Positions 1 to 64,000 of a DNA stretch of 64,000 bases are shown here, in pieces. Below the pieces are notes generated by a model, which saw nothing but the letters and a program-made list of their open reading frames with translations, was not told the origin of the DNA and ran no database searches. A program made the position numbers and the translations under genes. The stretch covers positions 3,782,001 to 3,846,000 of the forward strand of contig NC_086108.1 in NCBI RefSeq assembly GCF_963921235.1. The letters are read 5' to 3'. The stretch is from Mobula hypostoma (lineage: Eukaryota). Every line of letters begins with the position of its first letter. The first letter of the stretch is position 1.

Positions 1-82
1 TTCAGGAGGCCGATGGTTGTGGGGTAATAATTGTTCCTGAACCTGGCGGTGTGGGACCTGAGGCTCATTGTGGTGAGTGAAG

Positions 83-177
83 TTATCCACACTGGTTCAG
101 GAGCCTGATGGTTGTGGGGTAATAACTGTTCCTGAACCTGCTGGTGTGGGACCTGAGGCTCATTGTGGTGAGTGAAG
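83..177 (-). mobile_element. Representative monomer: putative fragment of the 3' end of a non-LTR retrotransposon (Rex1/Babar-like LINE), comprising the last ~25 codons of the RT ORF, its stop, and a short stretch of 3' UTR. Applies to every monomer.
   Basis: Minus strand 160..83 translates SLRSHTSRFRNSYYPTTIRLLNQCG*. This resembles the recalled C-terminal motif (R-Y-R-S-x-R-x-x-T-x-R-x-x-N-S-F-F-P-x-A-I-R-L-L-N) of fish and chondrichthyan Rex1/Babar-type RT proteins. Recognised from memory; no search run. Confidence 0.7.
87..149. repeat. Intra-monomer inverted repeat / hairpin (representative; present in most monomers)
   Basis: GGTTCAGGA (94-102) is the exact reverse complement of TCCTGAACC (130-138), with a 27-nt loop. 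Outer CCACAC (87-92) pairs with GTGTGG (144-149) across an asymmetric internal loop. Confidence 0.9.
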
Positions 178-2174
178 TTATCCACACTGGTTCAGGAGCC
201 TGATGGTTGTGGGGTAATAACTGTTCCTGAACCTGGTGGTGTGGGACCTGAGGCTCATTGTGGTGAGTGAAGTTATCCACACTGGTTCAGGAGCCTGATG
301 GTTGTGGGGTAATAACTGTTCCTGAACCTGGTGGTGTGGGACCTGAGGCTCATTGTGGTGAGTGAAGTTATCCACACTGGTTCAGGAGCCTGATGGTTGT
401 GGGGTAATAACTGTTCCTGAAGCTGGCGGTGTGGGACCTGAGGCTCATTGTGGTGGGTGAAGTTATCCACACTGGTTCAGGAGCCTCGATGGTTGTGGGG
501 TAATAACTGTTCCTGAACCTGGCTGGTGTGGGACCTGAGGCTCATTGTGGTGGGTGAAGTTATCCACACTGGTTCAGGAGCCTGATGGTTGTGGGGTAAT
601 AACTGTTCCTGAACCTGCTGGTGTGGGACCTGAGGCTCATTGTGGTGGGTGAAGTTATCCACACTGGTTCAGGAGCCTGATGGTTGTGGGGTAATAACTG
701 TTCCTGAACCTGCTGGTGTGGGACCTGAGGCTCATTGTGGTGGGTGAAGTTATCCACACTGGTTCAGGAGCCTGATGGTTGTGGGGTAATAACTGTTCCT
801 GAACCTGCTGGTGTGGGACCTGAGGCTCATTGTGGTGAGTGAAGTTATCCACACTGGTTCAGGAGCCTGATGGTTGTGGGGTAATAACTGTTCCTGAACC
901 TGCTGGTGTGGGACCTGAGGCTCATTGTGTGGATTGAAGTTATCCACACTGGTTCAGGAGCCTGATGGTTGTGGGGTAATAACTGTTCCTGAACCTGCTG
1001 GTGTGGGACCTGATGCTCATTGTGGGTAGTGAAGTTATCCACACTGGTTCAGGAGCCTGATGGTTGTGGGGTAATAACTGTTCCTGAACCTGCTGGTGTG
1101 GGACCTGAGGCTCATTGTGGTGAGTGAAGTTATCCACACTGGTTCAGGAGCCTGATGGTTGTGGGGTAATAACTGTTCCTGAACCTGGTGGTGTGGGACC
1201 TGAGGCTCATTGTGGTGAGTGAAGTTATCCACACTGGTTCAGGAGCCTGATGGCTGTGGGGTAATAACTGTTCCTGAACCTGGTGGTGTGGGACCTGAGG
1301 CTCATTGTGGTGAGTGAAGTTATCCACACTGGTTCAGGAGCCTGATGGTTGTGGGGTAATAACTGTTCCTGAACCTGGTGGTGTGGGACCTGAGGCTCAT
1401 TGTGGTGGGTGAAGTTATCCACACTGGTTCAGGAGCCTGATGGTTGTGGGGTAATAACTGTTCCTGAACCTGCTGGTGTGGGACATGAGGCTCATTGTGG
1501 TGAGTGAAGTTATCCACACTGGTTCAGGAGCCTGATGGTTGTGGGGTAATAACTGTTCCTGAACCTGCTGGTGTGGGACCTGAGGCTCATTGTGGGGATT
1601 GAAGTTATCCACACTGGTTCAGGAGCCTGACGGTTGTGGGGTAATAACTGTTCCTGAACCTGCTGGTGTGGGACCTGAGGCTCATTGTGGTGGGTGAAGT
1701 TATCCACACTGGTTCAGGAGCCTGATGGTTGTGGGGTAATAACTGTTCCTGAACCTGCTGGTGTGGGACCTGAGGCTCATTGTGGTGAGTGAAGTTATCC
1801 ACACTGGTTCAGGAACCTGATGGTTGTGGGGTAATAACTGTTCCTGAACCTGCTGGTGTGGGACCTGAGGCTCATTGTGGTGAGTGAAGTTATCCACACT
1901 GGTTCAGGAGCCTGATGGTTGTGGGGTAATAACTGTTCCTGAACCTGGTGGTGTGGGACCTGAGGCTCATTGTGGTGAGTGAAGTTATCCACACTGGTTC
2001 AGGAGCCTGATGGTTGTGGGGTAATAACTGTTCCTGAACCTGCTGGTGTGGGACCTGAGGCTCATTGTGGGTAGTGAAGTTATCCACACTGGTTCAGGAG
2101 CCTGATGGTTGTGGGGTAATAACTGTTCCTGAACCTGCTGGTGTGGGACCTGAGGCTCATTGTGGTGAGTGAAG

Positions 2175-2263
2175 TTATCCACACTGGTTCAGGAGCCTGA
2201 TGGTTGTGGGGTAATAACTGTTCCTGAACCTGGTGGTGTGGGACCTCATTGTGGTGAGTGAAG
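2175..2263. repeat. 89-bp variant monomer (6-bp deletion), first of about 50 copies
   Basis: GGGACCTGAGGCTCATT becomes GGGACCTCATT. Also at monomers starting 3986, 6194, 7993, 9222, 11021, 13176, 14975, 17866, 19854 and onward to 63773; these match the 63-aa ORFs in the track. Confidence 0.95.
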
Positions 2264-3118: not shown

Positions 3119-3225
3119 TTATCCACACTGGTTCAGGAGCCCGATGGTTGTGGGGTAATAACTGGGGTAATAACTGTTCCTGAACCTGCTGGTGTGGGAC
3201 CTGAGGCTCATTGTGGTGGGTGAAG
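3119..3225. repeat. 107-bp variant monomer with a 12-bp internal tandem duplication
   Basis: TGGGGTAATAAC repeated at 3151-3162 and 3163-3174; seen only once in the window. Confidence 0.9.
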
Positions 3226-11700: not shown

Positions 11701-14700
11701 CCTGACGGTTGTGGGGTAATAACTGTTCCTGAACCTGGTGGTGTGGGACCTGAGGCTCATTGTGGTGAGTGAAGTTATCCACACTGGTTCAGGAGCCTGA
11801 TGGTTGTGGGGTAATAACTGTTCCTGAACCTTGTGGTGTGGGACCTGAGGCTCATTGTGGTGAGTGAAGTTATCCACACTGGTTCAGGAGCCCAATGGTT
11901 GTGGGGTAATAATTGTTCCTGAACCTGGTGGTGAGTGAAGTTATCCACACTTGTTCAGGAGCCCGATGGTTGTGGGGTAATAACTGTTCCTGAAGCTGGC
12001 GGTGTGGGACCTGAGGCTCATTGTGGTGAGTGAAGTTATCCACACTGGTTCAGGAGCCTGATGGTTGTGGGGTAATAACTGTTCCTGAACCTGGTGGTGT
12101 GGGACCTGAGGCTCATTGTGGTGGGTGAAGTTATCCACACTGGTTCAGGAGCCTGATGGTTGTGGGGTAATAACTGTTCCTGAACCTGGTGGTGTGGGAC
12201 CTGAGGCTCATTGTGGTGGGTGAAGTTATCCACACTGGTTCAGGAGCCTGATGGTTGTGGGGTAATAACTGTTCCTGAAGCTGGCGGTGTGGGACCTGAG
12301 GCTCATTGTGGTGGGTGAAGTTATCCACACTGGTTCAGGAGCCTGATGGTTGTGGGGTAATAACTGTTCCTGATGCTGGCGGTATGGGACCTGAGGCTCA
12401 TTGTGGTGGGTGAAGTTATCCACACTGGTTCAGGAGCCTGATGGTTGTGGGGTAATAACTGTTCCTGAACCTGCTGGTGTGGGACCTGAGGCTCATTGTG
12501 GTGGGTGAAGTTATCCACACTGGTTCAGGAGCCTGATGGTTGAAGGGTAATAACTGTTCCTGAACCTGCAGGTGTGGGACCTGAGGCTCATTGTGGTGAG
12601 TGAAGTTATCCACACTGGTTCAGGAGCCTGATGGTTGTGGGGTAATAACTGTTCCTGAACCTGCTGGTGTGGGACCTGAGACTCATTGTGGGGAGTGAAG
12701 TTATCCACACTGGTTCAGGAGCCTGATGGTTGTGGGGTAATAACTGTTCCTGAACCTGCTGGTGTGGGACCTGAGGCTCATTGTGGTGGGTGAAGTTATC
12801 CACACTGGTTCAGGAGCCTGATGGTTGTGGGGTAATAACTGTTCCTGAACCTGCTGGTGTGGGACCTGAGGCTCATTGTGGTGAGTGAAGTTATCCACAC
12901 TGGTTCAGGAGCCTGATGGTTGTGGGGTAATAACTGTTCCTGAACCTGGTGGTGTGGGACCTGAGGCTCATTGTGGTGAGTGAAGTTATCCACACTGGTT
13001 CAGGAGCCTGATGGTTGTGGGGTAATAACTGTTCCTGAACCTGCTGGTGTGGGACCTGAGGCTCATTGTGGGTAGTGAAGTTATCCACACTGGTTCAGGA
13101 GCCTGATGGTTGTGGGGTAATAACTGTTCCTGAACCTGCTGGTGTGGGACCTGAGTCTCATTGTGGTGAGTGAAGTTATCCACACTGGTTCAGGAGCCTG
13201 ATGGTTGTGGGGTAATAACTGTTCCTGAACCTGGTGGTGTGGGACCTCATTGTGGTGAGTGAAGTTATCCACACTGGTTCAGGAGCCTGATGGCTGTGGG
13301 GTAATAACTGTTCCTGAACCTGGTGGTGTGGGACCTGAGGCTCATTGTGGTGAGTGAAGTTATCCACACTGGTTCAGGAGCCTGATGGTTGTGGGGTATT
13401 AACTGTTCCTGAACCTGGTGGTGTGTGACCTGAGGCTCATTGTGGTGGGTGAAGTTATCCACACTGGTTCAGGAGCCTGATGGTTGTGGGGTAATAACTG
13501 TTCCTGAACCTGCTGGTGTGGGACCTGAGGCTCATTGTGGTGAGTGAAGTTATCCACACTGGTTCAGGAGCCTGATGGTTGTGGGGTAATAACTGTTCCT
13601 GAACCTGCTTGTGTGGGACCTGAGGCTCATTGTGGGGATTGAAGTTATCCACACTGGTTCAGGAGCCTGACGGTTGTGGGGTAATAACTGTTCCTGAACC
13701 TGCTTGTGTGGGACCTGAGGCTCATTATGGTGAGTGAAGTTATCCACACTGGTTCAGGAGCCTGACGGTTGTGGGGTAATAACTGTTCCTGAACCTGCTG
13801 GTGTGGGACCTGAGGCTCATTGTGGTGAGTGAAGTTATCCACACTGGTTCAGGAGCCTGATGGTTGTGGGGTAATAACTGTTCCTGAACCTGGTGGTGTG
13901 GGACCTGATGCTCATTGTGGTGAGTGAAGTTATCCACACTGGTTCAGGAGCCTGATGGTTGTGGGGTAATAACTGTTCCTGAAGCTGGCGGTGTGGGACC
14001 TGAGGCTCATTGTGGTGGGTGAAGTTATCCACACTGGTTCATGAGCCCGATGGTTGTGGGGTAATAACTGTTCCTGAAGCTGGCGGTGTGGGACCTGAGG
14101 CTCATTGTGGTGGGTGAAGTTATCCACACTGGTTCAGGAGCCCGATGGTTGTGGGGTAATAACTGTTCCTGAACCTGGTGGTGTGGGACCTGAGGCTCAT
14201 TGTGGTGGGTGATGTTATCCACACTGGTTCAGGAGCCTGATGGTTGTGGGGTAATAACTGTTCCTGAACCTGGTGGTGTGGGACCTGAGGCTCATTGTGG
14301 TGGGTGAAGTTATCCACACTGGTTCAGGAGGCCGATAGTTGTGGGGTAATAATTGTTCCTGAAGCTGGCGGTGTGGGACCTGAGGCTCATTGTGGTGGGT
14401 GAAGTTATCCACACTGGTTCAGGAGCCCGATGGTTGTGGGGTAATAACTGTTCCTGAAGCTGGCGGTGTGGGACCTGAGGCTCATTGTGGTGGGTGAAGT
14501 TATCCACACTGGTTCAGGAGCCCGATGGTTGTGGGGTAATAACTGTTGCTGAACCTGCTGGTGTGGGACCTGATGCTCATTGTGGTGGGTGAAGTTATCC
14601 ACACTGGTTCAGGAGCCTGATGGTTGTGGGGTAATAACTGTTCCTGAACCTGCTGGTGTGGGACCTGAGGCTCATTGTGGTTGGTGAAGTTATCCACACT

Positions 14701-31500: not shown

Positions 31501-34500
31501 GGCTCATTGTGTTGAGTGAAGTTATCCACACTGGTTCAGGAGCCTGACGGTTGTGGGGTAATAACTGTTCCTGAACCTGGTGGTTTGGGACCTGAGGCTC
31601 ATTGTGGTGAGTGAAGTTATCCACACTGGTTCAGGAGCCTGATGGTTGTGGGGTAATAACTGTTCCTGAACCTTGTGGTGTGGGACCTGAGGCTCATTGT
31701 GGTGAGTGAAGTTATCCACACTGGTTCAGGAGCCCGATGGTTGTGGTGTAATAATTGTTCCTGAACCTGGTGGTGAGTGAAGTTATCCACACTTGTTCAG
31801 GAGCCCGATGGTTGTGGGGTAATAACTGTTCCTGAAGCTGGCGGTGTGGGACCTGAGGCTCATTGTGGCGAGTGAAGTTATCCACACTGGTTCAGGAGCC
31901 TGATGGTTGTGGGGTAATAACTGTTCCTGAACCTGGTGGTGTGGGACCTGAGGCTCATTGTGGTGGGTGAAGTTATCCACACTGGTTCAGGAGCCTGATG
32001 GTTGTGGGGTAATAACTGTTCCTGAACCTGGTGGTATGGGACCTGAGGCTCATTGTGGTGGGTGAAGTTATCCACACTGGTTCAGGAGCCTGATGGTTGT
32101 GGGGTAATAACTGTTCCTGAAGCTGTCGGTGTGGGACCTGAGGCTCATTGTGGTGGGTGAAGTTATCCACACTGGTTCAGGAGCCTGATGGTTGTGGGGT
32201 AATAACTGTTCCTGATGCTGGCGGTATGGGACCTGAGGCTCATTGTGGTGGGTGAAGTTATCCACACTGGTTCAGGAGCCTGATGGTTGTGGGGTAATAA
32301 CTGTTCCTGAACCTGGTGGTGTGGGACCTGAGGCTCATTGTGGTGGGTGAAGTTATCCACACTGGTTCAGGAGCCTGATGGTTGATGGGTAATAACTGTT
32401 CCTGAACCTGCAGGTGTGGGACCTGAGGCTCATTGTGGTGAGTGAAGTTATCCACACTGGTTCAGGAGCCTGATGGTTGTGGGGTAATAACTGTTCCTGA
32501 ACCTGCTGGTGTGGGACCTGAGACTCATTGTGGGGAGTGAAGTTATCCACACTGGTTCAGGAGCCTGATGGTTGTGGGGTAATAACTGTTCCTGAACCTG
32601 CTGGTGTGGGACCTGAGGCTCATTGTGGTGAGTGAAGTTATCCACACTGGTTCAGGAGCCTGATGGTTGTGGGGTAATAACTGTTCCTGAACCTGGTGGT
32701 GTGGGACCTCATTGTGGTGAGTGAAGTTATCCACACTGGTTCAGGAGCCTGATGGCTGTGGGGTAATAACTGTTCCTGAACCTGCTGGTGTGGGACCTGA
32801 GGCTCATTGTGGTGAGTGAAGTTATCCACACTGGTTCAGGAGCCTGATGGTTGTGGGGTAATAACTGTTCCTGAACCTGCTGGTGTGGGACCTGAGGCTC
32901 ATTGTGGTGGGTGAAGTTATCCACACAGGTTCAGGAGCCTGATGGTTGTGGGGTAATAACTGTTCCTGAACCTGCTGGTGTGGGACCTGAGGCTCATTGT
33001 GGTGGGTGAAGTTATCCACACTGGTTCAGGAGCCTGATGGTTGTGGGGTAATAACTGTTCCTGAACCTTCTGGTGTGGGACCTGAGGCTCATTGTGGTGA
33101 GTGAAGTTATCCACACTGGTTCAGGAGCCTGATGGTTGTGGGGTAATAACTGTTCCTGAACCTGGTGGTGTGGGACCTGAGGCTCATTGCGGGGAGTGAA
33201 GTTATCCACACTGGTTCAGGAACCTGACGGTTGTGGGGTAATAACTGTTCCTGAACCTGGTGGTGTGGGACCTGAGGCTCATTGTGGTGAGTGAAGTTAT
33301 CCACACTGGTTCAGGAGCCTGTCGGTTGTGGGGTAATAACTGTTCCTGAACCTGGTGGTGTGGGACCTGAGGCTCATTGTGGTGAGTGAAATTATCCACA
33401 CTGGTTCAGGAGCCTGACGGTTGTGGGGTAATAATTGTTCCTGAACCTGGTGGTGTGGGACCTGAGGCTCATTGTGGTGAGTGAAGTTATCCACACTGGT
33501 TCAGGAGCCCGATGGTTGTGGGGTAATAATTGTTCCCAACCTGGTGGTGTGGGACCTGAGGCTCATTGTGGTGAGTGAAGTTATCAATACTGGTTCAGGA
33601 GCCCGATGGTTGTGGGGTAATAACTGTTCCCGAACCTGGCGGTGTGGGACCTGAGGCTCATTGTGGTGAGCGAAGTTATCCACACTGGTTCAGGAGCCCG
33701 ATGGTTGTGGGGTAATAACTGTTCCTGAACCTGGTGGTGTGGGACCTGAGGCTCATTGTGGTGGGTGAAGTTATCCACACTGGTTCAGGAGCCTGATGGT
33801 TGTGGGGTAATAACTGTTCCTGAACCTTGTGGTGTGGGACCTGAGGCTCATTGTGGTGGGTGAAGTTATCCACACTGGTTCAGGAGCCTGATGGTTGTGG
33901 GGTAATAACTGTTCCTGAACCTGCTGGTGTGGGACCTGAGGCTGATTGTGGTGAGTGAAGTTATCCACACTGGTTCAGGAGCCTGATGGTTGTGGGGTAA
34001 TAACTGTTCCTGAACCTGCTGGTTTGGGACCTGAGGCTCATTGTGGGGAGTGAAGTTATCCACAGTGGTTCAGCAGCCTGATGGTTGTGGGGTAATAACT
34101 GTTCCTGAACCTGCTGGTGTGGGACCTGAGGCTCATTGTGGTGAGTGAAGTTATCCACACTGGTTCAGGAGCCTGATGGTTGTGGGGTAATAACTGTTCC
34201 TGAACCTGGTGGTGTGGGACCTCATTGTGGTGAGTGAAGTTATCCACACTGGTTCAGGAGCCTGATGGCTGTGGGGTAATAACTGTTCCTGAACCTGCTG
34301 GTGTGGGACCAGAGGCTCATTGTGGGGAGTGAAGATATCCACACTGGTTCAGGAGCCTGATGGTTGTGGGGTAATAACTGTTCCTGAACCTGGTGGTGTG
34401 GGACCTCATTGTGGTGAGTGAAGTTATCCACACTGGTTCAGGAGCCTGATGGCTGTGGGGTAATAACTGTTCCTGAACCTGCTGGTGTGGGACCTGAGGC

Positions 34501-34710
34501 TCATCGTGGTGAGTGAAGTTATCCACACTGGTTCAGGAGCCTGATGGTTGTGGGGTAATAACTGTTCCTGAACCTGCTGGTGTGGGACCTGAGGCTGATT
34601 GTGGGGAATGAAGTTATCCACACTGGCTCAGGAGCCTGATGGTTGTGGGGTAATAACTGTTCCTGAACCTGCTGGTGTGGGACCTGAGGCTCATTGTGGT
34701 GAGTGAAGTT
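14400..34710. repeat. Higher-order tandem duplication of about 10.8-11.0 kb (approx. 14.4-23.7 kb vs 25.2-34.7 kb)
   Basis: Marker pairs 14975/25800, 15824/26649 (offset 10825); 16940/27854, 17866/28780 (10914); 19854/30863, 20703/31712, 21629/32638 (11009); 23164/34151 (10987). Boundaries approximate. Confidence 0.8.
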
Positions 34711-37160
34711 ATCCACACTGGTTCAGGAGCCTGATGGTTGTGGGGTAATAACTGTTCCTGAACCTGCTGGTGTGGGACCTGAGGCTGATTGTGGGGAATG
34801 AAGTTATCCACACTGGCTCAGGAGCCTGATGGTTGTGGGGTAATAACTGTTCCTGAACCTGCAGGTGTGGGACCTGAGGCTCATTGTGGTGAGTGAAGTT
34901 ATCCACACTGGTTCAGGAGCCTGATGGTTGTGGGGTAATAACTGTTCCTGAACCTGCTGGTGTGGGACCTGAGACTCATTGTGGGGAGTGAAGTTATCCA
35001 CACTGGTTCAGGAGCCTGATGGTTGTGGGGTAATAACTGTTCCTGAACCTGCTGGTGTGGGACCTGAGGCTCATTGTGGTGAGTGAAGTTATCCACACTG
35101 GTTCAGGAGCCTGATGGTTGTGGGGTAATAACTGTTCCTGAACCTGGTGGTGTGGGACCTCATTGTGGTGAGTGAAGTTATCCACACTGGTTCAGGAGCC
35201 TGATGGCTGTGGGGTAATAACTGTTCCTGAACCTGCTGGTGTGGGACCTGAGGCTCATTGTGGTGAGTGAAGTTATCCACACTGGTTCAGGAGCCTGATG
35301 GTTGTGGGGTAATAACTGTTCCTGAACCTGCTGGTGTGGGACCTGAGGCTCATTGTGGTGGGTGAAGTTATCCACACAGGTTCAGGAGCCTGATGGTTGT
35401 GGGGTAATAACTGTTCCTGAACCTGCTGGTGTGGGACCTGAGGCTCATTGTGGTGGGTGAAGTTATCCACACTGGTTCAGGAGCCTGATGGTTGTGGGGT
35501 AATAACTGTTCCTGAACCTTCTGGTGTGGGACCTGAGGCTCATTGTGGTGAGTGAAGTTATCCACACTGGTTCAGGAGCCTGATGGTTGTGGGGTAATAA
35601 CTGTTCCTGAACCTGGTGGTGTGGGACCTGAGGCTCATTGCGGGGAGTGAAGTTATCCACACTGGTTCAGGAACCTGACGGTTGTGGGGTAATAACTGTT
35701 CCTGAACCTGGTGGTGTGGGACCTGAGGCTCATTGTGGTGAGTGAAGTTATCCACACTGGTTCAGGAGCCTGTCGGTTGTGGGGTAATAACTGTTCCTGA
35801 ACCTGGTGGTGTGGGACCTGAGGCTCATTGTGGTGAGTGAAATTATCCACACTGGTTCAGGAGCCTGACGGTTGTGGGGTAATAATTGTTCCTGAACCTG
35901 GTGGTGTGGGACCTGAGGCTCATTGTGGTGAGTGAAGTTATCCACACTGGTTCAGGAGCCCGATGGTTGTGGGGTAATAATTGTTCCCAACCTGGTGGTG
36001 TGGGACCTGAGGCTCATTGTGGTGAGTGAAGTTATCAATACTGGTTCAGGAGCCCGATGGTTGTGGGGTAATAACTGTTCCCGAACCTGGCGGTGTGGGA
36101 CCTGAGGCTCATTGTGGTGAGCGAAGTTATCCACACTGGTTCAGGAGCCCGATGGTTGTGGGGTAATAACTGTTCCTGAACCTGGTGGTGTGGGACCTGA
36201 GGCTCATTGTGGTGGGTGAAGTTATCCACACTGGTTCAGGAGCCTGATGGTTGTGGGGTAATAACTGTTCCTGAACCTTGTGGTGTGGGACCTGAGGCTC
36301 ATTGTGGTGGGTGAAGTTATCCACACTGGTTCAGGAGCCTGATGGTTGTGGGGTAATAACTGTTCCTGAACCTGCTGGTGTGGGACCTGAGGCTGATTGT
36401 GGTGAGTGAAGTTATCCACACTGGTTCAGGAGCCTGATGGTTGTGGGGTAATAACTGTTCCTGAACCTGCTGGTTTGGGACCTGAGGCTCATTGTGGGGA
36501 GTGAAGTTATCCACAGTGGTTCAGCAGCCTGATGGTTGTGGGGTAATAACTGTTCCTGAACCTGCTGGTGTGGGACCTGAGGCTCATTGTGGTGAGTGAA
36601 GTTATCCACACTGGTTCAGGAGCCTGATGGTTGTGGGGTAATAACTGTTCCTGAACCTGGTGGTGTGGGACCTCATTGTGGTGAGTGAAGTTATCCACAC
36701 TGGTTCAGGAGCCTGATGGCTGTGGGGTAATAACTGTTCCTGAACCTGCTGGTGTGGGACCAGAGGCTCATTGTGGGGAGTGAAGATATCCACACTGGTT
36801 CAGGAGCCTGATGGTTGTGGGGTAATAACTGTTCCTGAACCTGGTGGTGTGGGACCTCATTGTGGTGAGTGAAGTTATCCACACTGGTTCAGGAGCCTGA
36901 TGGCTGTGGGGTAATAACTGTTCCTGAACCTGCTGGTGTGGGACCTGAGGCTCATCGTGGTGAGTGAAGTTATCCACACTGGTTCAGGAGCCTGATGGTT
37001 GTGGGGTAATAACTGTTCCTGAACCTGCTGGTGTGGGACCTGAGGCTGATTGTGGGGAATGAAGTTATCCACACTGGCTCAGGAGCCTGATGGTTGTGGG
37101 GTAATAACTGTTCCTGAACCTGCTGGTGTGGGACCTGAGGCTCATTGTGGTGAGTGAAGT
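32400..37160. repeat. Higher-order tandem duplication, 2451-bp unit (26 monomers)
   Basis: 89-bp monomers at 32638/35089, 34151/36602 and 34335/36786; rare CCACACAGG variant in monomers 32917/35368. Confidence 0.9.
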
Positions 37161-37533
37161 TATCCACACTGGTTCAGGAGCCTGATGGTTGTGGGGTAAT
37201 AACTGTTCCTGAACCTGCTGGTGTGGGACCTGAGGCTCATTGTGGTGAGTGAAGTTATCCACACTGGTTCAGGAGCCTGATGGTTGTGGGGTAATAACTG
37301 TTCCTGAACCTGGTGGTGTGGGACCTCATTGTGGTGAGTGAAGTTATCCACACTGGTTCAGGAGCCTGATGGCTGTGGGGTAATAACTGTTCCTGAACCT
37401 GCTGGTGTGGGACCTGCGGCTCATTGTGGTGAGTGAAGTTATCCACACTGGTTCAGGAGCCTGATGGTTGTGGGGTGATAACTGTTCCTGAACCTGCTGG
37501 TGTGGGACCTGAGGCTCATTGTGGGGAATGAAG

Positions 37534-40500
37534 TTATCCACACTGGTTCAGGAGCCTGATGGTTGTGGGGTAATAACTGTTGCTGAACCTGCTGGTGTGG
37601 GACCTGAGGCTCATTGTGGTGAGTGAAGTTATCCACACTGGTTCAGGAGCCTGATGGTTGTGGGGTAATAACTGTTCCTGAACCTGGTGGTGTGGGACCT
37701 CATTGTGGTGAGTGAAGTTATCCACACTGGTTCAGGAGCCTGATGGCTGTGGGGTAATAACTGTTCCTGAACCTGGTGGTGTGGGACCTGAGGCTCATTG
37801 TGGTGAGTGAAGTTATCCACACTGGTTCAGGAGCCTGATGGTTTTGGGGTAATAACTGTTCCTGAACCTGGTGGTGTGGGACCTGAGGCTCATTGTGGTG
37901 GGTGAAGTTATCCACACTGGTTCAGGAGCCTTATGGTTGTGGGGTAATAACTGTTCCTGAACCTGGTGGTGTGGGACCTGAGGCTCATTGTGGTGAGTGA
38001 AGTTATCCACACTGGTTCAGGAGCCTGATGGTTGTGGGGTAATAACTGTTCCTCAACCTGCTGGTGTGGGACCTGAGGCTCATTGTGGGGAGTGAAGTTA
38101 TCCACACTGGTTCAGGAGCCTGATGGTTGTGGGGTAATAACTGTTCCTGAACCTGCTGGTGTGGGACCTGAGGCTCATTGTGGGGAGTGAAGTTATCCAC
38201 ACTGGTTCAGGAGCCTGATGGTTGTGGGGTAATGACTGTTCCTGAACCTGGTGGTGTGGGACCTGAGGCTCATTGTGGTGAGTGAAGTTATCCACACTGG
38301 TTCAGGAGCCTGACGGTTGTGGGGTAATAACTGTTCCTGAACCTGGTGGTGTGGGACCTGAGGCTCATTGTGGTGAGTGAAGTTATCCACACTGGTTCAG
38401 GAGCCTGACGTTTGTGGGGTAATAACTGTTCCTGAACCTGGTGGTGTGGGACCTGAGGCTCATTGTGGTGAGTGAAGTTATCCACACTGGTTCAGGAGGC
38501 CGATGGTTGTGGGGTAATAATTGTTCCTGAAGCTGGCGGTGTGGGACCTGAGGCTCATTGTGGTGGGTGAAGTTATCCACACTGGTTCAGGAGCCCGATG
38601 GTTGTGGGGTAATAACTGTTCCTGAAGCTGGCGGTGTGGGACCTGAGGCTCATTGTGGTGGGTGAAGTTATCCACACTGGTTCAGGAGCCCGATGGTTGT
38701 GGGGTAATAACTGTTCCTGAACCTGCTGGTGTGGGACCTGAGGCTCATTGTGGGGAGTGAAGTTATCCACACTGGTTCAGGAGCCTGATGGTTGTGGGGT
38801 AATGACTGTTCCTGAACCTGGTGGTGTGGGACCTGAGGCTCATTGTGGTGAGTGAAGTTATCCACACTGGTTCAGGAGCCTGACGGTTGTGGGGTAATAA
38901 CTGTTCCTGAACCTGGTGGTGTGGGACCTGAGGCTCATTGTGGTGAGTGAAGTTATCCACACTGGTTCAGGAGCCTGACGTTTGTGGGGTAATAACTGTT
39001 CCTGAACCTGGTGGTGTGGGACCTGAGGCTCATTGTGGTGAGTGAAGTTATCCACACTGGTTCAGGAGGCCGATGGTTGTGGGGTAATAATTGTTCCTGA
39101 AGCTGGCGGTGTGGGACCTGAGGCTCATTGTGGTGGGTGAAGTTATCCACACTGGTTCAGGAGCCCGATGGTTGTGGGGTAATAACTGTTCCTGAAGCTG
39201 GCGGTGTGGGACCTGAGGCTCATTGTGGTGGGTGAAGTTATCCACACTGGTTCAGGAGCCCGATGGTTGTGGGGTAATAACTGTTCCTGAACCTGCTGGT
39301 GTGGGACCTGAGGCTCATTGTGGTGGGTGAAGTTATCCACACTGGTTCAGGAGCCTGATGGTTGTGGGGTAATAACTGTTCCTGAACCTGCTGGTGTGGG
39401 ACCTGAGGCTCATTGTGGTGGGTGAAGTTATCCACACTGGTTCAGGAGCCTGATGGTTGTGGGGTAATAACTGTTCCTGAACCTGCTGGTGTGGGACCTG
39501 AGGCTCATTGTGGTGAGTGAAGTTATCCACACTGGTTCAGGAGCCTGATGGTTGTGGGGTAATAACTGTTCCTGAACCTGCTGGTGTGGGACCTGAGGCT
39601 CATTGTGGGGATTGAAGTTATCCACACTGGTTCAGGAGCCTGATGGTTGTGGGGTAATAACAGTTCCTGAACCTGCTGGTGTGGGACCTGAGGCTCATTG
39701 TGGGTAGTGAAGTTATCCACACTGGTTCAGGAGCCTGATGGTTGTGGGGTAATAACTGTTCCTGAACCTGCTGGTGTGGGACCTGAGTCTCATTGTGGTG
39801 AGTGAAGTTATCCACACTGGTTCAGGAGCCTGATGGTTGTGGGGTAATAACTGTTCCTGAACCTGGTGGTGTGGGACCTCATTGTGGTGAGTGAAGTTAT
39901 CCACACTGGTTCAGGAGCCTGATGGCTGTGGGGTAATAACTGTTCCTGAACCTGGTGGTGTGGGACCTGAGGCTCATTGTGGTGAGTGAAGTTATCCACA
40001 CTGGTTCAGGAGCCTGATGGTTGTGGGGTAATACCTGTTCCTGAACCTGGTGGTGTCGGACCTGAGGCTCATTGTGGTGGGTGAAGTTATCCACACTGGT
40101 TCAGGAGCCTGATGGTTGTGGGGTAATAACTGTTCCTCAACCTGCTGGTGTGGGACCTGAGGCTCATTGTGGTGAGTGAAGTTATCCACACTGGTTCAGG
40201 AGCCTGATGGTTGTGGGGTAATAACTGTTCCTGAACCTGCTGGTGTGGGAGCTGAGGCTCATTGTGGGGATTGAAGTTATCCACACTGGTTCAGGAGCCT
40301 GACGGTTGTGGGGTAATAACTGTTCCTGAACCTGCTGGTGTGGGACCTGAGGCTCATTGTGGTGAGTGAAGTTATCCACACTGGTTCAGGAGCCTGACGG
40401 TTGTGGGGTAATAACTGTTCCTGAACCTGCTGGTGTGGGACCTGAGGCTCATTGTGGTGAGTGAAGTTATCCACACTGGTTCAGGAGCCTGATGGTTGTG

Positions 40501-43500
40501 GTGTAATAACTGTTCCTGAACCTGGTGGTGTGGGACCTGAGGCTCATTGTGGTGAGTGAAGTTATCCACACTGGTTCAGGAGCCTGATGGTTGTGGGGTA
40601 ATAACTGTTCCTGAACCTGCTGGTGTGGGACCTGAGGCTCATTGTGGTTGGTGAAGTTATCCACACTGGTTCAGGAGCCTGATGGTTGTGGGGTAATAAC
40701 TGTTCCTGAACCTGCTGGTGTGGGACCTGAGGCTCATCGTGGTGAGTGAAGTTATCCACACTGGTTCAGGAGCCTGATGGTTGTGGGGTAATAACTGTTC
40801 CTGAACCTTCTGGTGTGGGACCTGAGGCTCATTGTGGGGATTGAAGTTATCCACACTGGTTCAGGAGCCTGATGGTTGTGGGGTAATAACAGTTCCTGAA
40901 CCTGCTGGTGTGGGACCTGAGGCTCATTGTGGGTAGTGAAGTTATCCACACTGGTTCAGGAGCCTGATGCTTGTGGGGTAAGAACTGTTCCTGAACCTGG
41001 TGGTGTGGGACCTCATTGTGGTGAGTGAAGTGATCCACACTGGTTCAGGAGCCTGATGGCTGTGGGGTAATAACTGTTCCTGAACCTGGTGGTGTGGGAC
41101 CTGAGGCTCATTGTGGTGAGTGAAGTTATCCACACTGGTTCAGGAGCCTGATGGTTGTGGGGTAATAACTGTTCCTGAACCTGGTGGTGTGGGACCTGAG
41201 GCTCATTGTGGTGGGTGAAGTTATCCACACTGGTTCAGGAGCCTGATGGTTGTGGGTAATAACTGTTGCTGAACCTGCTGGTGTGGGACCTGAGGCTCAT
41301 TGTGGTGAGTGAAGTTATCCACACTGGTTCAGGAGCCTGATGGTTGTGGGGTAATAACTGTTCCTGAACCTGGTGGTGTGGGACCTCATTGTGGTGAGTG
41401 AAGTTATCCACACTGGTTCAGGAGCCTGATGGCTGTGGGGTAATAACTGTTCCTGAACCTGGTGGTGTGGGACCTGAGGCTCATTGTGGTGAGTGAAGTT
41501 ATCCACACTGGTTCAGGAGCCTGATGGTTGTGGGGTAATAACTGTTCCTGAACCTGGTGGTGTGGGACCTGAGGCTCATTGTGGTGGGTGAAGTTATCCA
41601 CACTGGTTCAGGAGCCTTATGGTTGTGGGGTAATAACTGTTCCTGAACCTGGTGGTGTGGGACCTGAGGCTCATTGTGGTGAGTGAAGTTATCCACACTG
41701 GTTCAGGAGCCTGATGGTTGTGGGGTAATAACTGTTCCTCAACCTGCTGGTGTGGGACCTGAGGCTCATTGTGGGGAGTGAAGTTATCCACACTGGTTCA
41801 GGAGCCTGATGGTTGTGGGGTAATAACTGTTCCTGAACCTGCTGGTGTGGGACCTGAGGCTCATTGTGGGGAGTGAAGTTATCCACACTGGTTCAGGAGC
41901 CTGATGGTTGTGGGGTAATGACTGTTCCTGAACCTGGTGGTGTGGGACCTGAGGCTCATTGTGGTGAGTGAAGTTATCCACACTGGTTCAGGAGCCTGAC
42001 GGTTGTGGGGTAATAACTGTTCCTGAACCTGGTGGTGTGGGACCTGAGGCTCATTGTGGTGAGTGAAGTTATCCACACTGGTTCAGGAGCCTGACGTTTG
42101 TGGGGTAATAACTGTTCCTGAACCTGGTGGTGTGGGACCTGAGGCTCATTGTGGTGAGTGAAGTTATCCACACTGGTTCAGGAGGCCGATGGTTGTGGGG
42201 TAATAATTGTTCCTGAAGCTGGCGGTGTGGGACCTGAGGCTCATTGTGGTGGGTGAAGTTATCCACACTGGTTCAGGAGCCCGATGGTTGTGGGGTAATA
42301 ACTGTTCCTGAAGCTGGCGGTGTGGGACCTGAGGCTCATTGTGGTGGGTGAAGTTATCCACACTGGTTCAGGAGCCCGATGGTTGTGGGGTAATAACTGT
42401 TCCTGAACCTGCTGGTGTGGGACCTGAGGCTCATTGTGGGGAGTGAAGTTATCCACACTGGTTCAGGAGCCTGATGGTTGTGGGGTAATGACTGTTCCTG
42501 AACCTGGTGGTGTGGGACCTGAGGCTCATTGTGGTGAGTGAAGTTATCCACACTGGTTCAGGAGCCTGACGGTTGTGGGGTAATAACTGTTCCTGAACCT
42601 GGTGGTGTGGGACCTGAGGCTCATTGTGGTGAGTGAAGTTATCCACACTGGTTCAGGAGCCTGACGTTTGTGGGGTAATAACTGTTCCTGAACCTGGTGG
42701 TGTGGGACCTGAGGCTCATTGTGGTGAGTGAAGTTATCCACACTGGTTCAGGAGGCCGATGGTTGTGGGGTAATAATTGTTCCTGAAGCTGGCGGTGTGG
42801 GACCTGAGGCTCATTGTGGTGGGTGAAGTTATCCACACTGGTTCAGGAGCCCGATGGTTGTGGGGTAATAACTGTTCCTGAAGCTGGCGGTGTGGGACCT
42901 GAGGCTCATTGTGGTGGGTGAAGTTATCCACACTGGTTCAGGAGCCCGATGGTTGTGGGGTAATAACTGTTCCTGAACCTGCTGGTGTGGGACCTGAGGC
43001 TCATTGTGGTGGGTGAAGTTATCCACACTGGTTCAGGAGCCTGATGGTTGTGGGGTAATAACTGTTCCTGAACCTGCTGGTGTGGGACCTGAGGCTCATT
43101 GTGGTGGGTGAAGTTATCCACACTGGTTCAGGAGCCTGATGGTTGTGGGGTAATAACTGTTCCTGAACCTGCTGGTGTGGGACCTGAGGCTCATTGTGGT
43201 GAGTGAAGTTATCCACACTGGTTCAGGAGCCTGATGGTTGTGGGGTAATAACTGTTCCTGAACCTGCTGGTGTGGGACCTGAGGCTCATTGTGGGGATTG
43301 AAGTTATCCACACTGGTTCAGGAGCCTGATGGTTGTGGGGTAATAACAGTTCCTGAACCTGCTGGTGTGGGACCTGAGGCTCATTGTGGGTAGTGAAGTT
43401 ATCCACACTGGTTCAGGAGCCTGATGGTTGTGGGGTAATAACTGTTCCTGAACCTGCTGGTGTGGGACCTGAGTCTCATTGTGGTGAGTGAAGTTATCCA

Positions 43501-45000
43501 CACTGGTTCAGGAGCCTGATGGTTGTGGGGTAATAACTGTTCCTGAACCTGGTGGTGTGGGACCTCATTGTGGTGAGTGAAGTTATCCACACTGGTTCAG
43601 GAGCCTGATGGCTGTGGGGTAATAACTGTTCCTGAACCTGGTGGTGTGGGACCTGAGGCTCATTGTGGTGAGTGAAGTTATCCACACTGGTTCAGGAGCC
43701 TGATGGTTGTGGGGTAATACCTGTTCCTGAACCTGGTGGTGTCGGACCTGAGGCTCATTGTGGTGGGTGAAGTTATCCACACTGGTTCAGGAGCCTGATG
43801 GTTGTGGGGTAATAACTGTTCCTCAACCTGCTGGTGTGGGACCTGAGGCTCATTGTGGTGAGTGAAGTTATCCACACTGGTTCAGGAGCCTGATGGTTGT
43901 GGGGTAATAACTGTTCCTGAACCTGCTGGTGTGGGAGCTGAGGCTCATTGTGGGGATTGAAGTTATCCACACTGGTTCAGGAGCCTGACGGTTGTGGGGT
44001 AATAACTGTTCCTGAACCTGCTGGTGTGGGACCTGAGGCTCATTGTGGTGAGTGAAGTTATCCACACTGGTTCAGGAGCCTGACGGTTGTGGGGTAATAA
44101 CTGTTCCTGAACCTGCTGGTGTGGGACCTGAGGCTCATTGTGGTGAGTGAAGTTATCCACACTGGTTCAGGAGCCTGATGGTTGTGGTGTAATAACTGTT
44201 CCTGAACCTGGTGGTGTGGGACCTGAGGCTCATTGTGGTGAGTGAAGTTATCCACACTGGTTCAGGAGCCTGATGGTTGTGGGGTAATAACTGTTCCTGA
44301 ACCTGCTGGTGTGGGACCTGAGGCTCATTGTGGTTGGTGAAGTTATCCACACTGGTTCAGGAGCCTGATGGTTGTGGGGTAATAACTGTTCCTGAACCTG
44401 CTGGTGTGGGACCTGAGGCTCATCGTGGTGAGTGAAGTTATCCACACTGGTTCAGGAGCCTGATGGTTGTGGGGTAATAACTGTTCCTGAACCTTCTGGT
44501 GTGGGACCTGAGGCTCATTGTGGGGATTGAAGTTATCCACACTGGTTCAGGAGCCTGATGGTTGTGGGGTAATAACAGTTCCTGAACCTGCTGGTGTGGG
44601 ACCTGAGGCTCATTGTGGGTAGTGAAGTTATCCACACTGGTTCAGGAGCCTGATGCTTGTGGGGTAAGAACTGTTCCTGAACCTGGTGGTGTGGGACCTC
44701 ATTGTGGTGAGTGAAGTGATCCACACTGGTTCAGGAGCCTGATGGCTGTGGGGTAATAACTGTTCCTGAACCTTGTGGTGTGGGACCTGAGGCTCATTGT
44801 GGTGAGTGAAGTTATCCACACTGGTTCAGGAACCTGATGGTTGTGGGGTAATAACTGTTCCTGAACCTGGTGGTGTGGGACCTGAGGCTCATTGTGGTGG
44901 GTGAAGTTATCCACACTGGTTCAGGAGCCTGATGGTTGTGGGTAATAACTGTTGCTGAACCTGCTGGTGTGGGACCTCAGGCTCATTGTGGTGAGTGAAG
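37534..45000. repeat. Higher-order tandem duplication, 3686-bp unit (39 monomers), each copy containing an internal 570-bp (6-monomer) duplication
   Basis: 89-bp monomers at 37629/41315, 39808/43494 and 40942/44628. The AATGACT variant monomer occurs at 38193, 38763, 41879 and 42449. Confidence 0.9.
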
Positions 45001-48000: not shown

Positions 48001-48396
48001 ATTGTGGGGAGTGAAGTTATCCACACTGGTTCAGGAGCCTGATGGTTGTGGGGTAATAACTGTTCCTGAACCTGCTGGTGTGGGACCTGAGGCTCATTGT
48101 GGGGAGTGAAGTTATCCACACTGGTTCAGGAGCCTGATGGTTGTGGGGTAATAACTGTTCCTGAACCTGCTGGTGTGGGACCTGAGGCTCATTGTGTGGA
48201 GTGAAGTTATCCACACTGGTTTAGGAGCCTGATGGTTGTGGGGTAATGACTGTTCCTGAACCTGGTTGTGTGGGACCTGAGGCTCATTGTGGTGAGTGAA
48301 GTTATCCACACTGGTTCAGGAGCCTGACGGTTGTGGGGTAATAACTGTTCCTGAACCTGGTGGTGTGGGACCTGAGGCTCATTGTGGTGAGTGAAG

Positions 48397-60000: not shown

Positions 60001-63000
60001 GTTATCCACACTGGTTCAGGAGCCTGATGGTTGTGGGGTAATAACTGTTCCTGAACCTGCTGGTGTGGGACCTGAGGCTCATTGTGGGGAGTGAAGTTAT
60101 CCACACTGGTTCAGGAGCCTGATGGTTGTCGGGTAATAACTGTTCCTGAACCTGCTGGTGTGGGACCTGAGGCTCATTGTGGTGAGTGAAGTTATCCACA
60201 CTGGTTCAGGAGCCTGATGGTTGTGGGGTAATAACTGTTCCTGAACCTGGTGGTGTGGGACCTCATTGTGGTGAGTGAAGTTATCCACACTGGTTCAGGA
60301 GCCTGATGGCTGTGGGGTAATAACTGTTCCTGAACCTGCTGGTGTGGGACCTGCGGCTCATTGTGGTGAGTGAAGTTATCCACACTGGTTCAGGAGCCTG
60401 AAGGTTGTGGGGTAATAACTGTTCCTGAACCTGGTGGTGTGGGACCTGAGGCTCATTGTGGTGAGTGAAGTTATCCACACTGGTTCAGGAGCCTGATGGT
60501 TGTGGGGTAATAACTGTTCCTGAACCTTCTGGTGTGGGACCTGAGGCTCATTGTGGTGAGTGAAGTTATCCACACTGGTTCAGGAGCCTGATGGTTGTGG
60601 GGTAATAACTGTTCCTGAACCTGGTGGTGTGGGACCTGAGGCTCATTGTGGGGAGTGAAGTTATCCACACTGGTTCAGGAACCTGACGGTTGTGGGGTAA
60701 TAACTGTTCCTGAACCTGGTGGTGTGGGACCTGAGGCTCATTGTGGTGAGTGAAGTTATCCACACTGGTTCAGGAGCCTGACGGTTGTGGGGTAATAACT
60801 GTTCCTGAACCTGGTGGTGTGGGACCTGAGACTCATTGTGGTGAGTGAAATTATCCACACTGGTTCAGGAGCCTGACGGTTGTGGGGTAATAATTGTTCC
60901 TGAACCTGGTGGTGTGGGACCTGAGGCTCATTGTGGTGAGTGAAGTTATCCACACTGGTTCAGGAGCCCGATGGTTGTGGGGTAATAATTGTTCCCGAAC
61001 CTGGTGGTGTGGGACCTGAGGCTCATTGTGGTGAGTGAAGTTATCCATACTGGTTCAGGAGCCCGATGGTTGTGGGGTAATAACTGTTCCCGAACCTGGC
61101 GGTGTGGGACCTGAGGCTCATTGTGGTGAGTGAAGTTATCCACACTGGTTCAGGAGCCCGATGGTTGTGGGGTAATAACTGTTCCCGAACCTTGTGGTGT
61201 GGGACCTGAGGCTCATTGTGGTGGGTGAAGTTATCCACACTGGTTCAGGAGCCTGATGGTTGTGGGGTAATAACTGTTCCTGAACCTGGTGGTGTGGGAC
61301 CTGAGGCTCATTGTGGTGGGTGAAGTTATCCACACTGGTTCAGGAGCCTGATGGTTGTGGGGTAATAACTGTTCCTGAACCTGCTGGTGTGGGACCTGAG
61401 GCTGATTGTGGTGAGTGAAGTTATCCACACTGGTTCAGGAGCCTCATGGTTGTGGGGTAATAACTGTTCCTGAACCTGCTGGTTTGGGACCTGAGGCTCA
61501 TTGTGGGGAGTGAAGTTATCCACACTGGTTCAGCAGCCTGATGGTTGTGGGGTAATAACTGTTCCTGAACCTGCTGGTGTGGGACCTGAGGCTCATTGTG
61601 GTGAGTGAAGTTATCCACACTGGTTCAGGAGCCTGATGGTTGTGGGGTAATAACTGTTCCTGAACCTGGTGGTGTGGGACCTCATTGTGGTGAGTGAAGT
61701 TATCCACACTGGTTCAGGAGCCTGATGGCTGTGGGGTAATAACTGTTCCTGAACCTGCTGGTGTGGGACCAGAGGCTCATTGTGGGGAGTGAAGTTATCC
61801 ACACTGGTTCAGGAGCCTGATGGTTGTGGGGTAATAACTGTTCCTGAACCTGGTGGTGTGGGACCTGAGGCTCATTGTGGTGAGTGAAGTTATCCACACT
61901 GGTTCAGGAGGCCGATGGTTGTGGGGTAATAATTGTTCCTGAAGCTTGCGGTGTGGGACCTGAGGCTCATTGTGGTGGGTGAAGTTATCCACACTGGTTC
62001 AGGAGCCCGATGGTTGTGGGGTAATAACTGTTCCTGAAGCTGGCGGTGTGGGACCTGAGGCTCATTGTGGTGGGTGAAGTTATCCACACTGGTTCAGGAG
62101 CCTGATGGTTGTGTGGTAATAACTGTTCCTGAACCTGCTGGTGTGGGACCTGAGGCTCATTGTGGTGAGTGAAGTTATCCACACTGGTTCAGGAGCCTGA
62201 TGGTTGTGGGGTAATAACTGTTCCTGAACATGGTGGTGTGGGACCTCATTGTGGTGAGTGAAGTTATCCACACTGGTTCAGGAGCCTGATGGCTGTGGGG
62301 TAATAACTGTTCCTGAACCTGCTGGTGTGGGACCTGCGGCTCATTGTGGTGAGTGAAGTTATCCACACTGGTTCAGGAGCCTGATGGTTGTGGGGTAATA
62401 ACTGTTCCTGAACCTGCTGGTGTGGGACCTGAGGCTCATTGTGGGGAATGAAGTTATCCACACTGGTTCAGGAGCCTGATGGTTGTGGGGTAATAACTGT
62501 TCCTGAACCTGCTGGTGTGGGACCTGAGGCTCATTGTGGTGAGTGAAGTTATCCACACTGGTTCAGGAGCCTGATGGTTGTGGGGTAATAACTGTTCCTG
62601 AACCTGGTGGTGTGGGACCTCATTGTGGTGAGTGAAGTTATCCACACTAGTTCAGGAGCCTGATGGCTGTGGGGTAATAACTGTTCCTGAACCTGGTGGT
62701 GTGGGACCTGAGGCTCATTGTGGTGGGTGAAGTTATCCACACTGGTTCAGGAGCCTGATGGTTGTGGGGTAATAACTGTTCCTGAACCTGGTGGTGTGGG
62801 ACCCTCATTGTGGTGAGTGAAGTTATCCACACTGGTTCAGGAGCCTGATGGTTGTGGGGTAATAACTGTTCCTGAACCTGGTGGTGTGGGACCTGAGGCT
62901 CATTGTGGTGGGTGAAGTTATCCACACTGGTTCAGGAGCCTGATGGTTGTGGGGTAATAACTGTTCCTGAACCTGCTGGTGTGGGACCTGAGGCTCATTG

Positions 63001-64000
63001 TGGTGAGTGAAGTTATCCACACTGGTTCAGGAGCCTGATGGTTGTGGGGTAATAACTGTTCCTGAACCTGCTGGTGTGGGACCTGAGGCTCATTGTGGGG
63101 AGTGAAGTTATCCACACTGGTTCAGGAGCCTGATGGTTGTGGGGTAATAACTGTTCCTGAACCTGCTGGTGTGGGAGCTGAGGCTCATTGTGGGGAGTGA
63201 AGTTATCCACACTGGTTCAGGAGCCCGATGGTTGTGGGGTAATAACTGTTCCCGAACCTGGCGGTGTGGGACCTGAGGCTCATTGTGGTGAGTGAAGTTA
63301 TCCACACTGGTTCAGGAGCCCGATGGTTGTGGGGTAATAACTGTTCCCGAACCTGGTGGTGTGGGACCTGAGGCTCATTGTGGTGGGTGAAGTTATCCAC
63401 ACTGGTTCAGGAGCCTGATGGTTGTGGGGTAATAACTGTTCCTGAACCTGGTGGTGTGGGACCTGAGGCTCATTGTGGTGGGTGAAGTTATCCACACTGG
63501 TTCAGGAGCCTGATGGTTGTGGGGTAATAACTGTTCCTGAACCTGCTGGTGTGGGACCTGAGGATGATTGTGGTGAGTGAAGTTATCCACACTGGTTCAG
63601 GAGCCTCATGGTTGTGGGGTAATAACTGTTCCTGAACCTGCTGGTTTGGGACCTGAGGCTCATTGTGGGGAGTGAAGTTATCCACACTGGTTCAGCAGCC
63701 TGATGGTTGTGGGGTAATAACTGTTCCTGAACCTGCTGGTGTGGGACCTGAGGCTCATTGTGGTGAGTGAAGTTATCCACGCTGGTTCAGGAGCCTGATG
63801 GTTGTGGGGTAATAACTGTTCCTGAACCTGGTGGTGTGGGACCTCATTGTGGTGAGTGAAGTTATCCACACTGGTTCAGGAGCCTGATGGCTGTGGGGTA
63901 ATAACTGTTCCTGAACCTGCTGGTGTGGGACCAGAGGCTCATTGTGGGGAGTGAAGTTATCCACACTGGTTCAGGAGCCTGATGGTTGTGGGGTAATAAC

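What the first reader, a model, noticed from the sequence alone, without database searches (positions are those of the whole stretch)
1..64000. A satellite apparently built from the 3' end of a Rex1/Babar-like LINE reverse-transcriptase ORF
Seen: each monomer's minus strand reads SLRSHT[T/S]RFRNSYYPTTIRLLNQCG-stop, then 14 nt (CTTCACTCACCACA), before the next copy. Known: Rex1/Babar-type LINE proteins of fishes and chondrichthyans end, as I recall, in a motif like LPSGRRYRSxRxxTxRxxNSFFPxAIRLLN, and satellites derived from transposon fragments are a documented phenomenon. Inference: a 95-bp slice spanning the ORF end and the start of the 3' UTR was amplified to at least 64 kb, with the junction inside CACAATG|AGCCTC. 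The sequence style suggests a fish or cartilaginous-fish host (weak). It may be an undescribed satellite family, possibly centromeric or subtelomeric.
Basis: partly seen in the sequence, partly recalled or inferred. Interest (0 to 1): 0.7.

Follow-up and report, generated by a model that had tools for sequence, protein, structure and literature searches.

The report
Ray satellite from a LINE's end
This 64-kb stretch is about 676 head-to-tail copies of a 95-base piece cut from the tail end of a jumping gene common in stingray-group rays, a clear new example of a known way in which satellite DNA arises.

Summary
Confirmed. The whole window is one satellite: 676 monomer anchors, mostly 95 bp apart, 2.5% from consensus, with exact multi-kilobase duplications. 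The unit is the last 25 codons, stop and 17 nt of 3' UTR of a dispersed element. In three public runs, 1,287-1,859 contigs each leave the unit at its start into the in-frame upstream codons SLLPSGRRYR, and 544-784 leave its end into a non-coding tail. The motif closes 970-aa reverse-transcriptase ORFs of Rex1/Babar type, three residues before the stop as here. The closest named relatives are from Hypanus and Mobula. The ray parent's own RT was not seen. No selection on the peptide (pN/pS 0.86). Centromeric role untested. LINE-derived satellites are known (chicken CR1/HinfI, cetacean L1); I found no Rex1 or ray case in nine paper searches.

The parts
1..64000 (-). Satellite array of about 676 head-to-tail monomers, running off both ends of the window; strand given is that of the parent LINE
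161..255 (-). One typical 95-bp monomer in LINE register
181..255 (-). Last 25 codons of the parent LINE's RT ORF (SLRSHTTRFRNSYYPTTIRLLNQCG)
161..180 (-). Stop codon (178-180) and first 17 nt of the parent's 3' UTR
   Evidence: loose ends before 258 in the next monomer; P0010 and P0023 tails
255..258 (-). Monomer junction: 256 is shared by both parent flanks (1-nt overlap); 257 differs from the commonest dispersed tail
   Evidence: table 7
199..206 (-). CCATCAGG, the 8-bp word that recurs 70 nt upstream in the parent and bounds the 70-nt unit of other ray arrays; its TCAGG core also bounds the 48-nt unit with 247-251
   Evidence: tables 5 and 7
2158..2246 (-). Example of the 89-bp monomer variant (6-nt deletion, 2-nt microhomology), 50 copies, marker of higher-order blocks
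11857..12004 (-). Example of the 71-bp variant (24-nt deletion, 6-nt microhomology), 8 copies
37845..44773 (.). Recent tandem duplication: 3243 bp identical at an offset of 3686
32387..37237 (.). Recent tandem duplication: 2400 bp identical at an offset of 2451

Best explanation
A non-coding satellite derived from a retrotransposon. Shown: the 95-bp unit is a slice of a very common dispersed element of rays, covering the ORF end and the start of the 3' UTR, and the motif is the C-terminus of Rex1/Babar-type RT proteins. Inferred: (1) one genomic copy suffered a 95-bp tandem duplication by end-joining or template switching with almost no microhomology (one base); (2) unequal exchange or break-induced copying between units expanded it; (3) this continues, as shown by exact duplications of 1.2-3.2 kb and irregular higher-order blocks, with microhomology deletions giving 89- and 71-bp variants; (4) the array is most likely passive heterochromatin, and the reading frame is a fossil that is not under selection.
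For: Loose ends at the junction: 1859/1287/1628 contigs (X1/X5/X9) continue into in-frame SLLPSGRRYR (reverse complement translated by eye) and 784/544/772 continue into a unique tail. L001 and L008 hold 970-aa ORFs with RVT_1 (E 4e-30) and PF09004 that end three residues after the motif; the peptide aligns to L001 residues 946-968, 12 of 23 identical. Of the 120 listed relatives 109 carry RVT_1; the motif was located in 68 and lies 3 residues from the end in 37 of those. Ray gene models carry the upstream LINE context in frame or one frame off, before their arrays (P0021 and P0004: 0 of 150 shuffles reach the score). Exact repeats of 1000 bp or more cover 34% of the window. Distinct variants in the 25 codons: 23 of 49 possible synonymous, 71 of 176 non-synonymous, p 0.42.
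Against: No ray protein joining an RT domain to this C-terminus was found in three word searches and one full HMMER search; the link to RT runs through bony-fish relatives 55-68% identical in DNA over 66 nt. The array ends lie outside the window and no genome is held, so birth inside one parent copy is not shown. Junction-bridging contigs, 87-94% alike, occur in three coded organisms (table 8), so the unit may be older than this array or may have been moved here.
Confidence: 0.8

Rival explanations
1. Same LINE origin, but the tandem unit was born in a still-mobile element: a LINE or LINE-dependent copy carrying tandem units next to an intact 3' tail was retrotransposed, seeding arrays at many places, one of which expanded here.
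For: 70-nt arrays sit in gene models at about a dozen loci in three species, several with LINE flanks on one side (P0004, P0021 upstream; P0005, P0023 downstream). The 95-bp junction appears in contigs of three coded organisms.
Against: The 70-nt unit is bounded by an 8-bp direct repeat, so independent births are easy to expect; the array variants differ between loci. No target-site duplication around an array-bearing copy could be examined.
Confidence: 0.15
2. Same origin, but the array has been recruited as functional centromeric or pericentromeric DNA.
For: Homogeneous (mean pairwise difference 4.1%), recent multi-kilobase duplications, a dimer of 190 bp near nucleosome repeat length (own knowledge), and a modest dyad: the plus-strand dimer folds better than 100 of 100 shuffles. 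Unchecked notes place two other element-born satellites 1.7 and 2.5 Mb away.
Against: The fold is weak for single monomers (z -1.3 to -2.1) and for the minus-strand dimer (8 of 100 shuffles as good); variants do not avoid the stem (32 of 120 in 30 of 95 nt, p 0.28). The best-studied analogues, squamate sSats, are subtelomeric (PMC10702118). No chromatin data.
Confidence: 0.12
3. The array is a repeated micro-gene: each junction supplies an ATG in frame with 25 codons, giving a 26-residue peptide.
For: The ATG is in frame in most monomers.
Against: pN/pS 0.86, p 0.42; the 89-bp variant, in 50 copies, puts the ATG straight into a frame shortened by two codons and other variants break it; no Pfam match; the ATG is explained by the parent's 3' UTR.
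Confidence: 0.02
4. Chance likeness to a LINE, or an assembly artefact.
For: The peptide is only 25 residues; a few zones hold read-error-like indels.
Against: Shuffle controls, in-frame flanks in thousands of contigs, and 197 distinct segment sequences in structured, nested duplications.
Confidence: 0.01

Closest known systems
Chicken HinfI repeat (SCR1), derived from a CR1 LINE (Table 1 and text of PMC9659126, passages)
   Same: Tandem repeat holding part of a LINE's ORF2 and 3' UTR; CR1 is described as moderately close to Rex1/Babar (PMC4635592).
   Different: There a CR1 piece is embedded in a tandem unit (title of the cited paper); here the whole 95-bp unit is LINE sequence, from a Rex1/Babar-type element, in a ray.
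Common cetacean satellite and seal Pvc20, derived from L1 (PMC9659126, passages)
   Same: Vertebrate satellites built from the 3' part or ORF2 of a LINE.
   Different: L1 clade, mammals; the unit here is short and spans the stop codon exactly.
SINE-derived satellites (sSats) of squamates (PMC10702118, abstract and passages)
   Same: Repeated, independent tandem amplification of sub-segments of a high-copy retroposon, arrays up to 1000 units, homogenised, often still flanked by the parent; matches the 48/70/95-nt family seen here.
   Different: Parent is a LINE coding end, not a SINE; flanks of the 95-bp array are outside the window; position on the chromosome unknown.
Rex1/Babar non-LTR retrotransposons (PMC4635592, PMC6274825, passages)
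   Same: The unit's peptide is the C-terminus of ORFs that show the Rex1 primer motifs at Rex1 spacing and short tandem 3' tails.
   Different: The array is not a retrotransposon: no RT, no endonuclease, no tail. Rex1 clusters in heterochromatin are reported by FISH, but as elements, not as a short-unit satellite.

Membership tests
Satellite DNA | Long head-to-tail array of a short unit | tested here: met
   676 anchors over 64 kb, one strand, no insert
Satellite DNA | Units homogenised, with turnover by block duplication | tested here: met
   2.5% from consensus, 4.1% pairwise, exact repeats to 3243 bp
Satellite DNA | Lies in heterochromatin | not testable with these tools
   No chromatin data; no genome held
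Transposon-derived satellite | Unit matches a dispersed element that has other flanks on both sides | tested here: met
   Loose ends at 256 and 258 in X1, X5, X9
Transposon-derived satellite | Array still flanked by the two halves of the parent copy | not testable with these tools
   Array runs off both ends; one-sided LINE flanks seen only for 70-nt arrays in ray gene models
Rex1/Babar (parent element) | Motif ends an ORF that holds an RT domain | tested here: met
   Met in fish relatives L001, L008 and 109 of 120 listed proteins; see next row for the ray parent
Rex1/Babar (parent element) | The ray parent itself carries the RT in this frame | tested here: inconclusive
   About 10 codons upstream seen in DNA and about 30 by gene models; no ray RT protein retrieved
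Rex1/Babar (parent element) | Rex1 primer-site motifs about 550-575 nt apart | tested here: met
   Peptide-level, relaxed match: 575 nt in L001 and L008; found in 84 of 120 relatives, 75 at 572 or 575 nt. At DNA level the primers fit L001 poorly (7 and 9 mismatches)
Rex1/Babar (parent element) | Apurinic endonuclease domain (often lost) | tested here: inconclusive
   PF03372 in 8 of 120 relatives; no Pfam hit at 0.001 in L001 or L008
Rex1/Babar (parent element) | 3' tail of 5-7 nt tandem units | tested here: inconclusive
   Seen by eye after AATAAA in L001 and L008; ray parent's tail not seen
Rex1/Babar (parent element) | Groups with Rex1/Babar in an RT tree | not tested
   No labelled reference RTs were on hand
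Centromeric satellite | CENP-A occupancy; presence at primary constrictions | not testable with these tools
   Needs ChIP, methylation or FISH

The most novel reading that the evidence does not exclude
The last 110 or so bases of this LINE's ORF are a recurrent satellite nursery in stingray-group rays: one segment has thrown off 48-, 70- and 95-nt units again and again, and the 95-bp product has been promoted to centromeric or pericentromeric DNA, which would give a ray centromeric repeat with a traceable birth sequence.
Probability: 0.1. Interest if true: 0.7.

Novelty: new member of a known kind. Interest (0 to 1): 0.38.

Why it matters
Satellites rarely keep a readable record of their birth. 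Here the parent is still abundant, so the cut points are known to the base and several sister units from the same segment can be compared: two bounded by 5-8 bp direct repeats, one by a single base, yet the last reached at least 64 kb. That makes it a test case for what decides whether a duplication stays small or becomes a satellite. It also gives a candidate marker for ray heterochromatin, where the papers read name no satellite families. A practical point: ray gene models named mucin-2-like, proline-rich protein-like and UBE2Z isoforms are wholly or partly translations of the sister arrays and are probably annotation artefacts.

Tried and rejected
No whole genome is held, so array ends, total size and chromosomal spread stay open. 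Pfam on the peptide and on the 67-residue frame that crosses monomers: nothing above threshold. Rfam on bases 1-1000: one chance-level hit, E 0.77. ESM Atlas on the 26-residue part: best 0.89, unnamed clusters, a lead only. Exact 25-nt pattern: 0 matches in metagenome and viral contigs; degenerate pattern: 0 in viral contigs. P0011 (4930 aa, dCache repeats) in the HMMER search is a chance hit and was dropped. Run X21 laid 0 reads, which is no test. Contig depths are not copy numbers and only the longest pieces are listed (24 shown, 124209 not), so I cannot say how abundant the exact 95-bp junction is in any organism. A conserved hairpin was considered and not supported. Earlier findings by sequence, by words and near the window: none. 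The hotspot idea is open to ascertainment bias: every query was centred on this segment, and LINE 3' ends are the highest-copy part of such elements.

Full report
Observation. The window is a single tandem array from first to last base. A core anchor occurs 676 times; 600 of 675 spacings are 95 bp, 50 are 89, 9 are 94, 8 are 71 and 8 are other. The 541 full-length monomers cut at the start anchor are 2.5% from their consensus and 4.1% from each other. All lie on one strand and there is no foreign insert. On the minus strand each reads 25 codons, a stop, and 17 nt.

Dispersed parent. Twenty of 24 listed runs hold words of the stretch; 14 rows from 10 coded organisms hold 37-56% of them. I laid three contig sets and one raw-read run on window 198-312, which has the junction in its middle. 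X1, X5 and X9 laid 48007, 37359 and 35898 contigs; X21 laid none and is no test. Loose ends pile up at the junction. Behind position 256, 1859, 1287 and 1628 contigs share a consensus whose reverse complement, translated by eye, reads SLLPSGRRYR in frame with the satellite's SLRSH. Before position 258, 784, 544 and 772 contigs share a different, non-repeating tail. So the unit is a slice of a dispersed element, and its ends are fixed to the base: position 256 fits both flanks and 257 differs from the commonest tail. The tail of ray model P0023 (FTHPNAEL) implies copies with a G at that place, so CpG decay in the parent copy would explain the odd base without any inserted nucleotide (inference).

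What the parent is. The peptide has no Pfam match alone. A degenerate scan for the two flanking motifs at the right spacing gave 11 metagenome and 2 genome loci, probably fish host DNA (inference). Two of the 13, L001 and L008, hold 970-residue ORFs with RVT_1 and PF09004 that end three residues after the motif, as the satellite does; the rest are partial or broken copies. To avoid circularity I scored only the 16 residues the pattern left free: the satellite beats all 100000 residue shuffles and all 2000 shuffled monomers. Searching with the C-terminal part of L001 gave 321 proteins; of the 120 listed, all carry PF09004, 109 carry RVT_1 and 8 an endonuclease domain. The end motif could be placed in 68 and lies three residues from the C-terminus in 37. 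An HMM from 111 of them gives the satellite peptide 23.4 bits against a best of 6.7 for 1000 shuffles. The peptides encoded by the standard Rex1 primers (PMC4635592, passages) are found, with relaxed matching, in 84 of 120 relatives, 75 of them 572 or 575 nt apart, close to the roughly 550-bp Rex1 product; L001 and L008 show short tandem tails by eye. The primers themselves fit L001 poorly as DNA. The parent therefore works like, and very probably is, a Rex1/Babar LINE; I did not test this with a tree, and no ray protein joining RT to this end was retrieved.

Host. Every close named protein hit comes from Hypanus sabinus, Mobula hypostoma or Mobula birostris, 82-95% identical over the matched part. 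Unchecked notes on the same genome also call it a ray. L2/CR1/Rex is the main LINE class of batoids, 12.5-22% of the genome (bioRxiv 10.64898/2026.10.27.761883, passages).

Sister repeats. Those ray proteins are not LINE proteins but gene models read through a different tandem unit: three units span 70 residues, so the unit is 70 nt. It runs between two copies of CCATCAGG, one in the PSG codons upstream of the satellite's start and one at window 199-206. The same joint (256 back to 199) is in 9, 10 and 3 contigs of X1, X5 and X9, and a 48-nt joint (246 back to 199, five shared letters) in 15, 11 and 12. By model names and contigs the 70-nt arrays lie at about a dozen loci in three species, one of them in UBE2Z models of both Mobula species. 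Two models begin with LINE context: P0021 matches the family profile in frame for ten residues (0 of 2000 shuffles as good), and P0021 and P0004 fit the next 15 columns one frame off (0 of 150 shuffles each). Others end in the LINE's last codons or tail (P0005, P0019, P0023). These arrays thus sit inside parent copies, as squamate sSats do (PMC10702118, abstract and passages). Whether this segment is a true hotspot is untested, since all my queries were centred on it.

Age and spread of the 95-bp unit. Of 24 listed contig pieces, 3 of 8 in X1, 8 of 8 in X5 and 1 of 8 in X9 bridge the junction with 31 or more letters each side, mostly 87-94% alike and at low depth. The junction thus exists in diverged form in three coded organisms, which suggests an origin older than this array. 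Only the longest pieces are shown, so abundance cannot be judged.

How the array grows. Exact repeats of 1000 bp or more cover 34% of the window; the longest are 3243 bp (offset 3686) and 2400 bp (offset 2451), with others at offsets of 11-20 kb. Variant strings show nested, irregular higher-order blocks. The 89- and 71-bp variants are deletions with 2- and 6-nt microhomology. This is the pattern expected from unequal exchange and break repair, as reviewed in PMC12628747 and PMC9659126 (passages). The mechanism is inferred.

Function. The reading frame is not selected: 23 of 49 possible synonymous and 71 of 176 non-synonymous changes occur (pN/pS 0.86, p 0.42). A 9-bp stem with a 6-bp extension exists; single monomers fold at z -1.3 to -2.1, the plus-strand dimer beats 100 of 100 shuffles but the minus-strand dimer is matched by 8 of 100, and variants do not avoid the arms. 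I judge the array passive heterochromatin (0.8), with a centromeric role possible but without direct support (0.12). Unchecked notes put two other element-born satellites 1.7 and 2.5 Mb before the window and another finding 48.8 Mb beyond it on the same piece; if right, the window lies in a satellite-rich region of a long chromosome, and element-born satellites are common in this genome, which lowers the surprise of this one.

Novelty. LINE-derived satellites are known: chicken HinfI from CR1 ORF2 and 3' UTR, cetacean and seal satellites from L1 (PMC9659126, passages and parts of Table 1; the word Rex does not occur in it; nor in PMC12628747). Nine searches (listings only, except the papers named) found no Rex1/Babar-derived satellite and no described ray satellite of this kind. 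The passages read in two ray genome preprints name no satellite family; their supplements are closed and the repeat tables there (Table S2 in each) may list the parent LINE or the repeat. Repbase and Dfam could not be searched, and most subscription papers are not in the library. PMC6274825 and PMC3381678 were read as passages for Rex1 background. Verdict: a well-supported new member of a known kind, with an unusually exact record of its origin and a set of sister repeats worth a genome-wide test. Interest 0.38.

Noticed in passing
P0003-P0010, P0012-P0024 (ray gene models): Models named mucin-2-like, basic salivary proline-rich protein-like, trithorax osa-like and uncharacterized in Hypanus and Mobula are translations through 70-nt tandem arrays of the same LINE segment; probably annotation artefacts.
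   Followed up: partly
P0009 and P0024: UBE2Z isoform models of both Mobula species end in the 70-nt repeat, suggesting a shared array at that gene and a possible or mis-called exonisation.
   Followed up: no
window 199-251, joints in runs X1, X5, X9: A 48-nt tandem joint bounded by a 5-nt direct repeat occurs in all three organisms.
   Followed up: partly
window 5386-5701 and 22366-22671: Short zones with clustered small indels and rearranged monomers (83, 141, 92, 118, 94 bp), either read errors or repair scars.
   Followed up: no
window 1-8000: Monomers here are closer to consensus (1.8%) than in the rest of the array (2.4-2.8%) and the higher-order blocks are less regular.
   Followed up: no
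window 256-258 and every junction: The junction places an ATG in frame with the 25 LINE codons, and a 67-residue stop-free frame crosses three monomers; no sign of selection.
   Followed up: yes
L012 and L013: Two contigs of a public bacterial genome record carry broken Rex1-like LINE ends, most likely fish host DNA in the assembly.
   Followed up: no
L001 970-3879 and L008 72-2981: Intact-looking 970-residue Rex1-like ORFs in metagenome contigs; PF09004, named after the ALKBH8 N-terminus, is a constant part of this LINE family just after the RT.
   Followed up: partly
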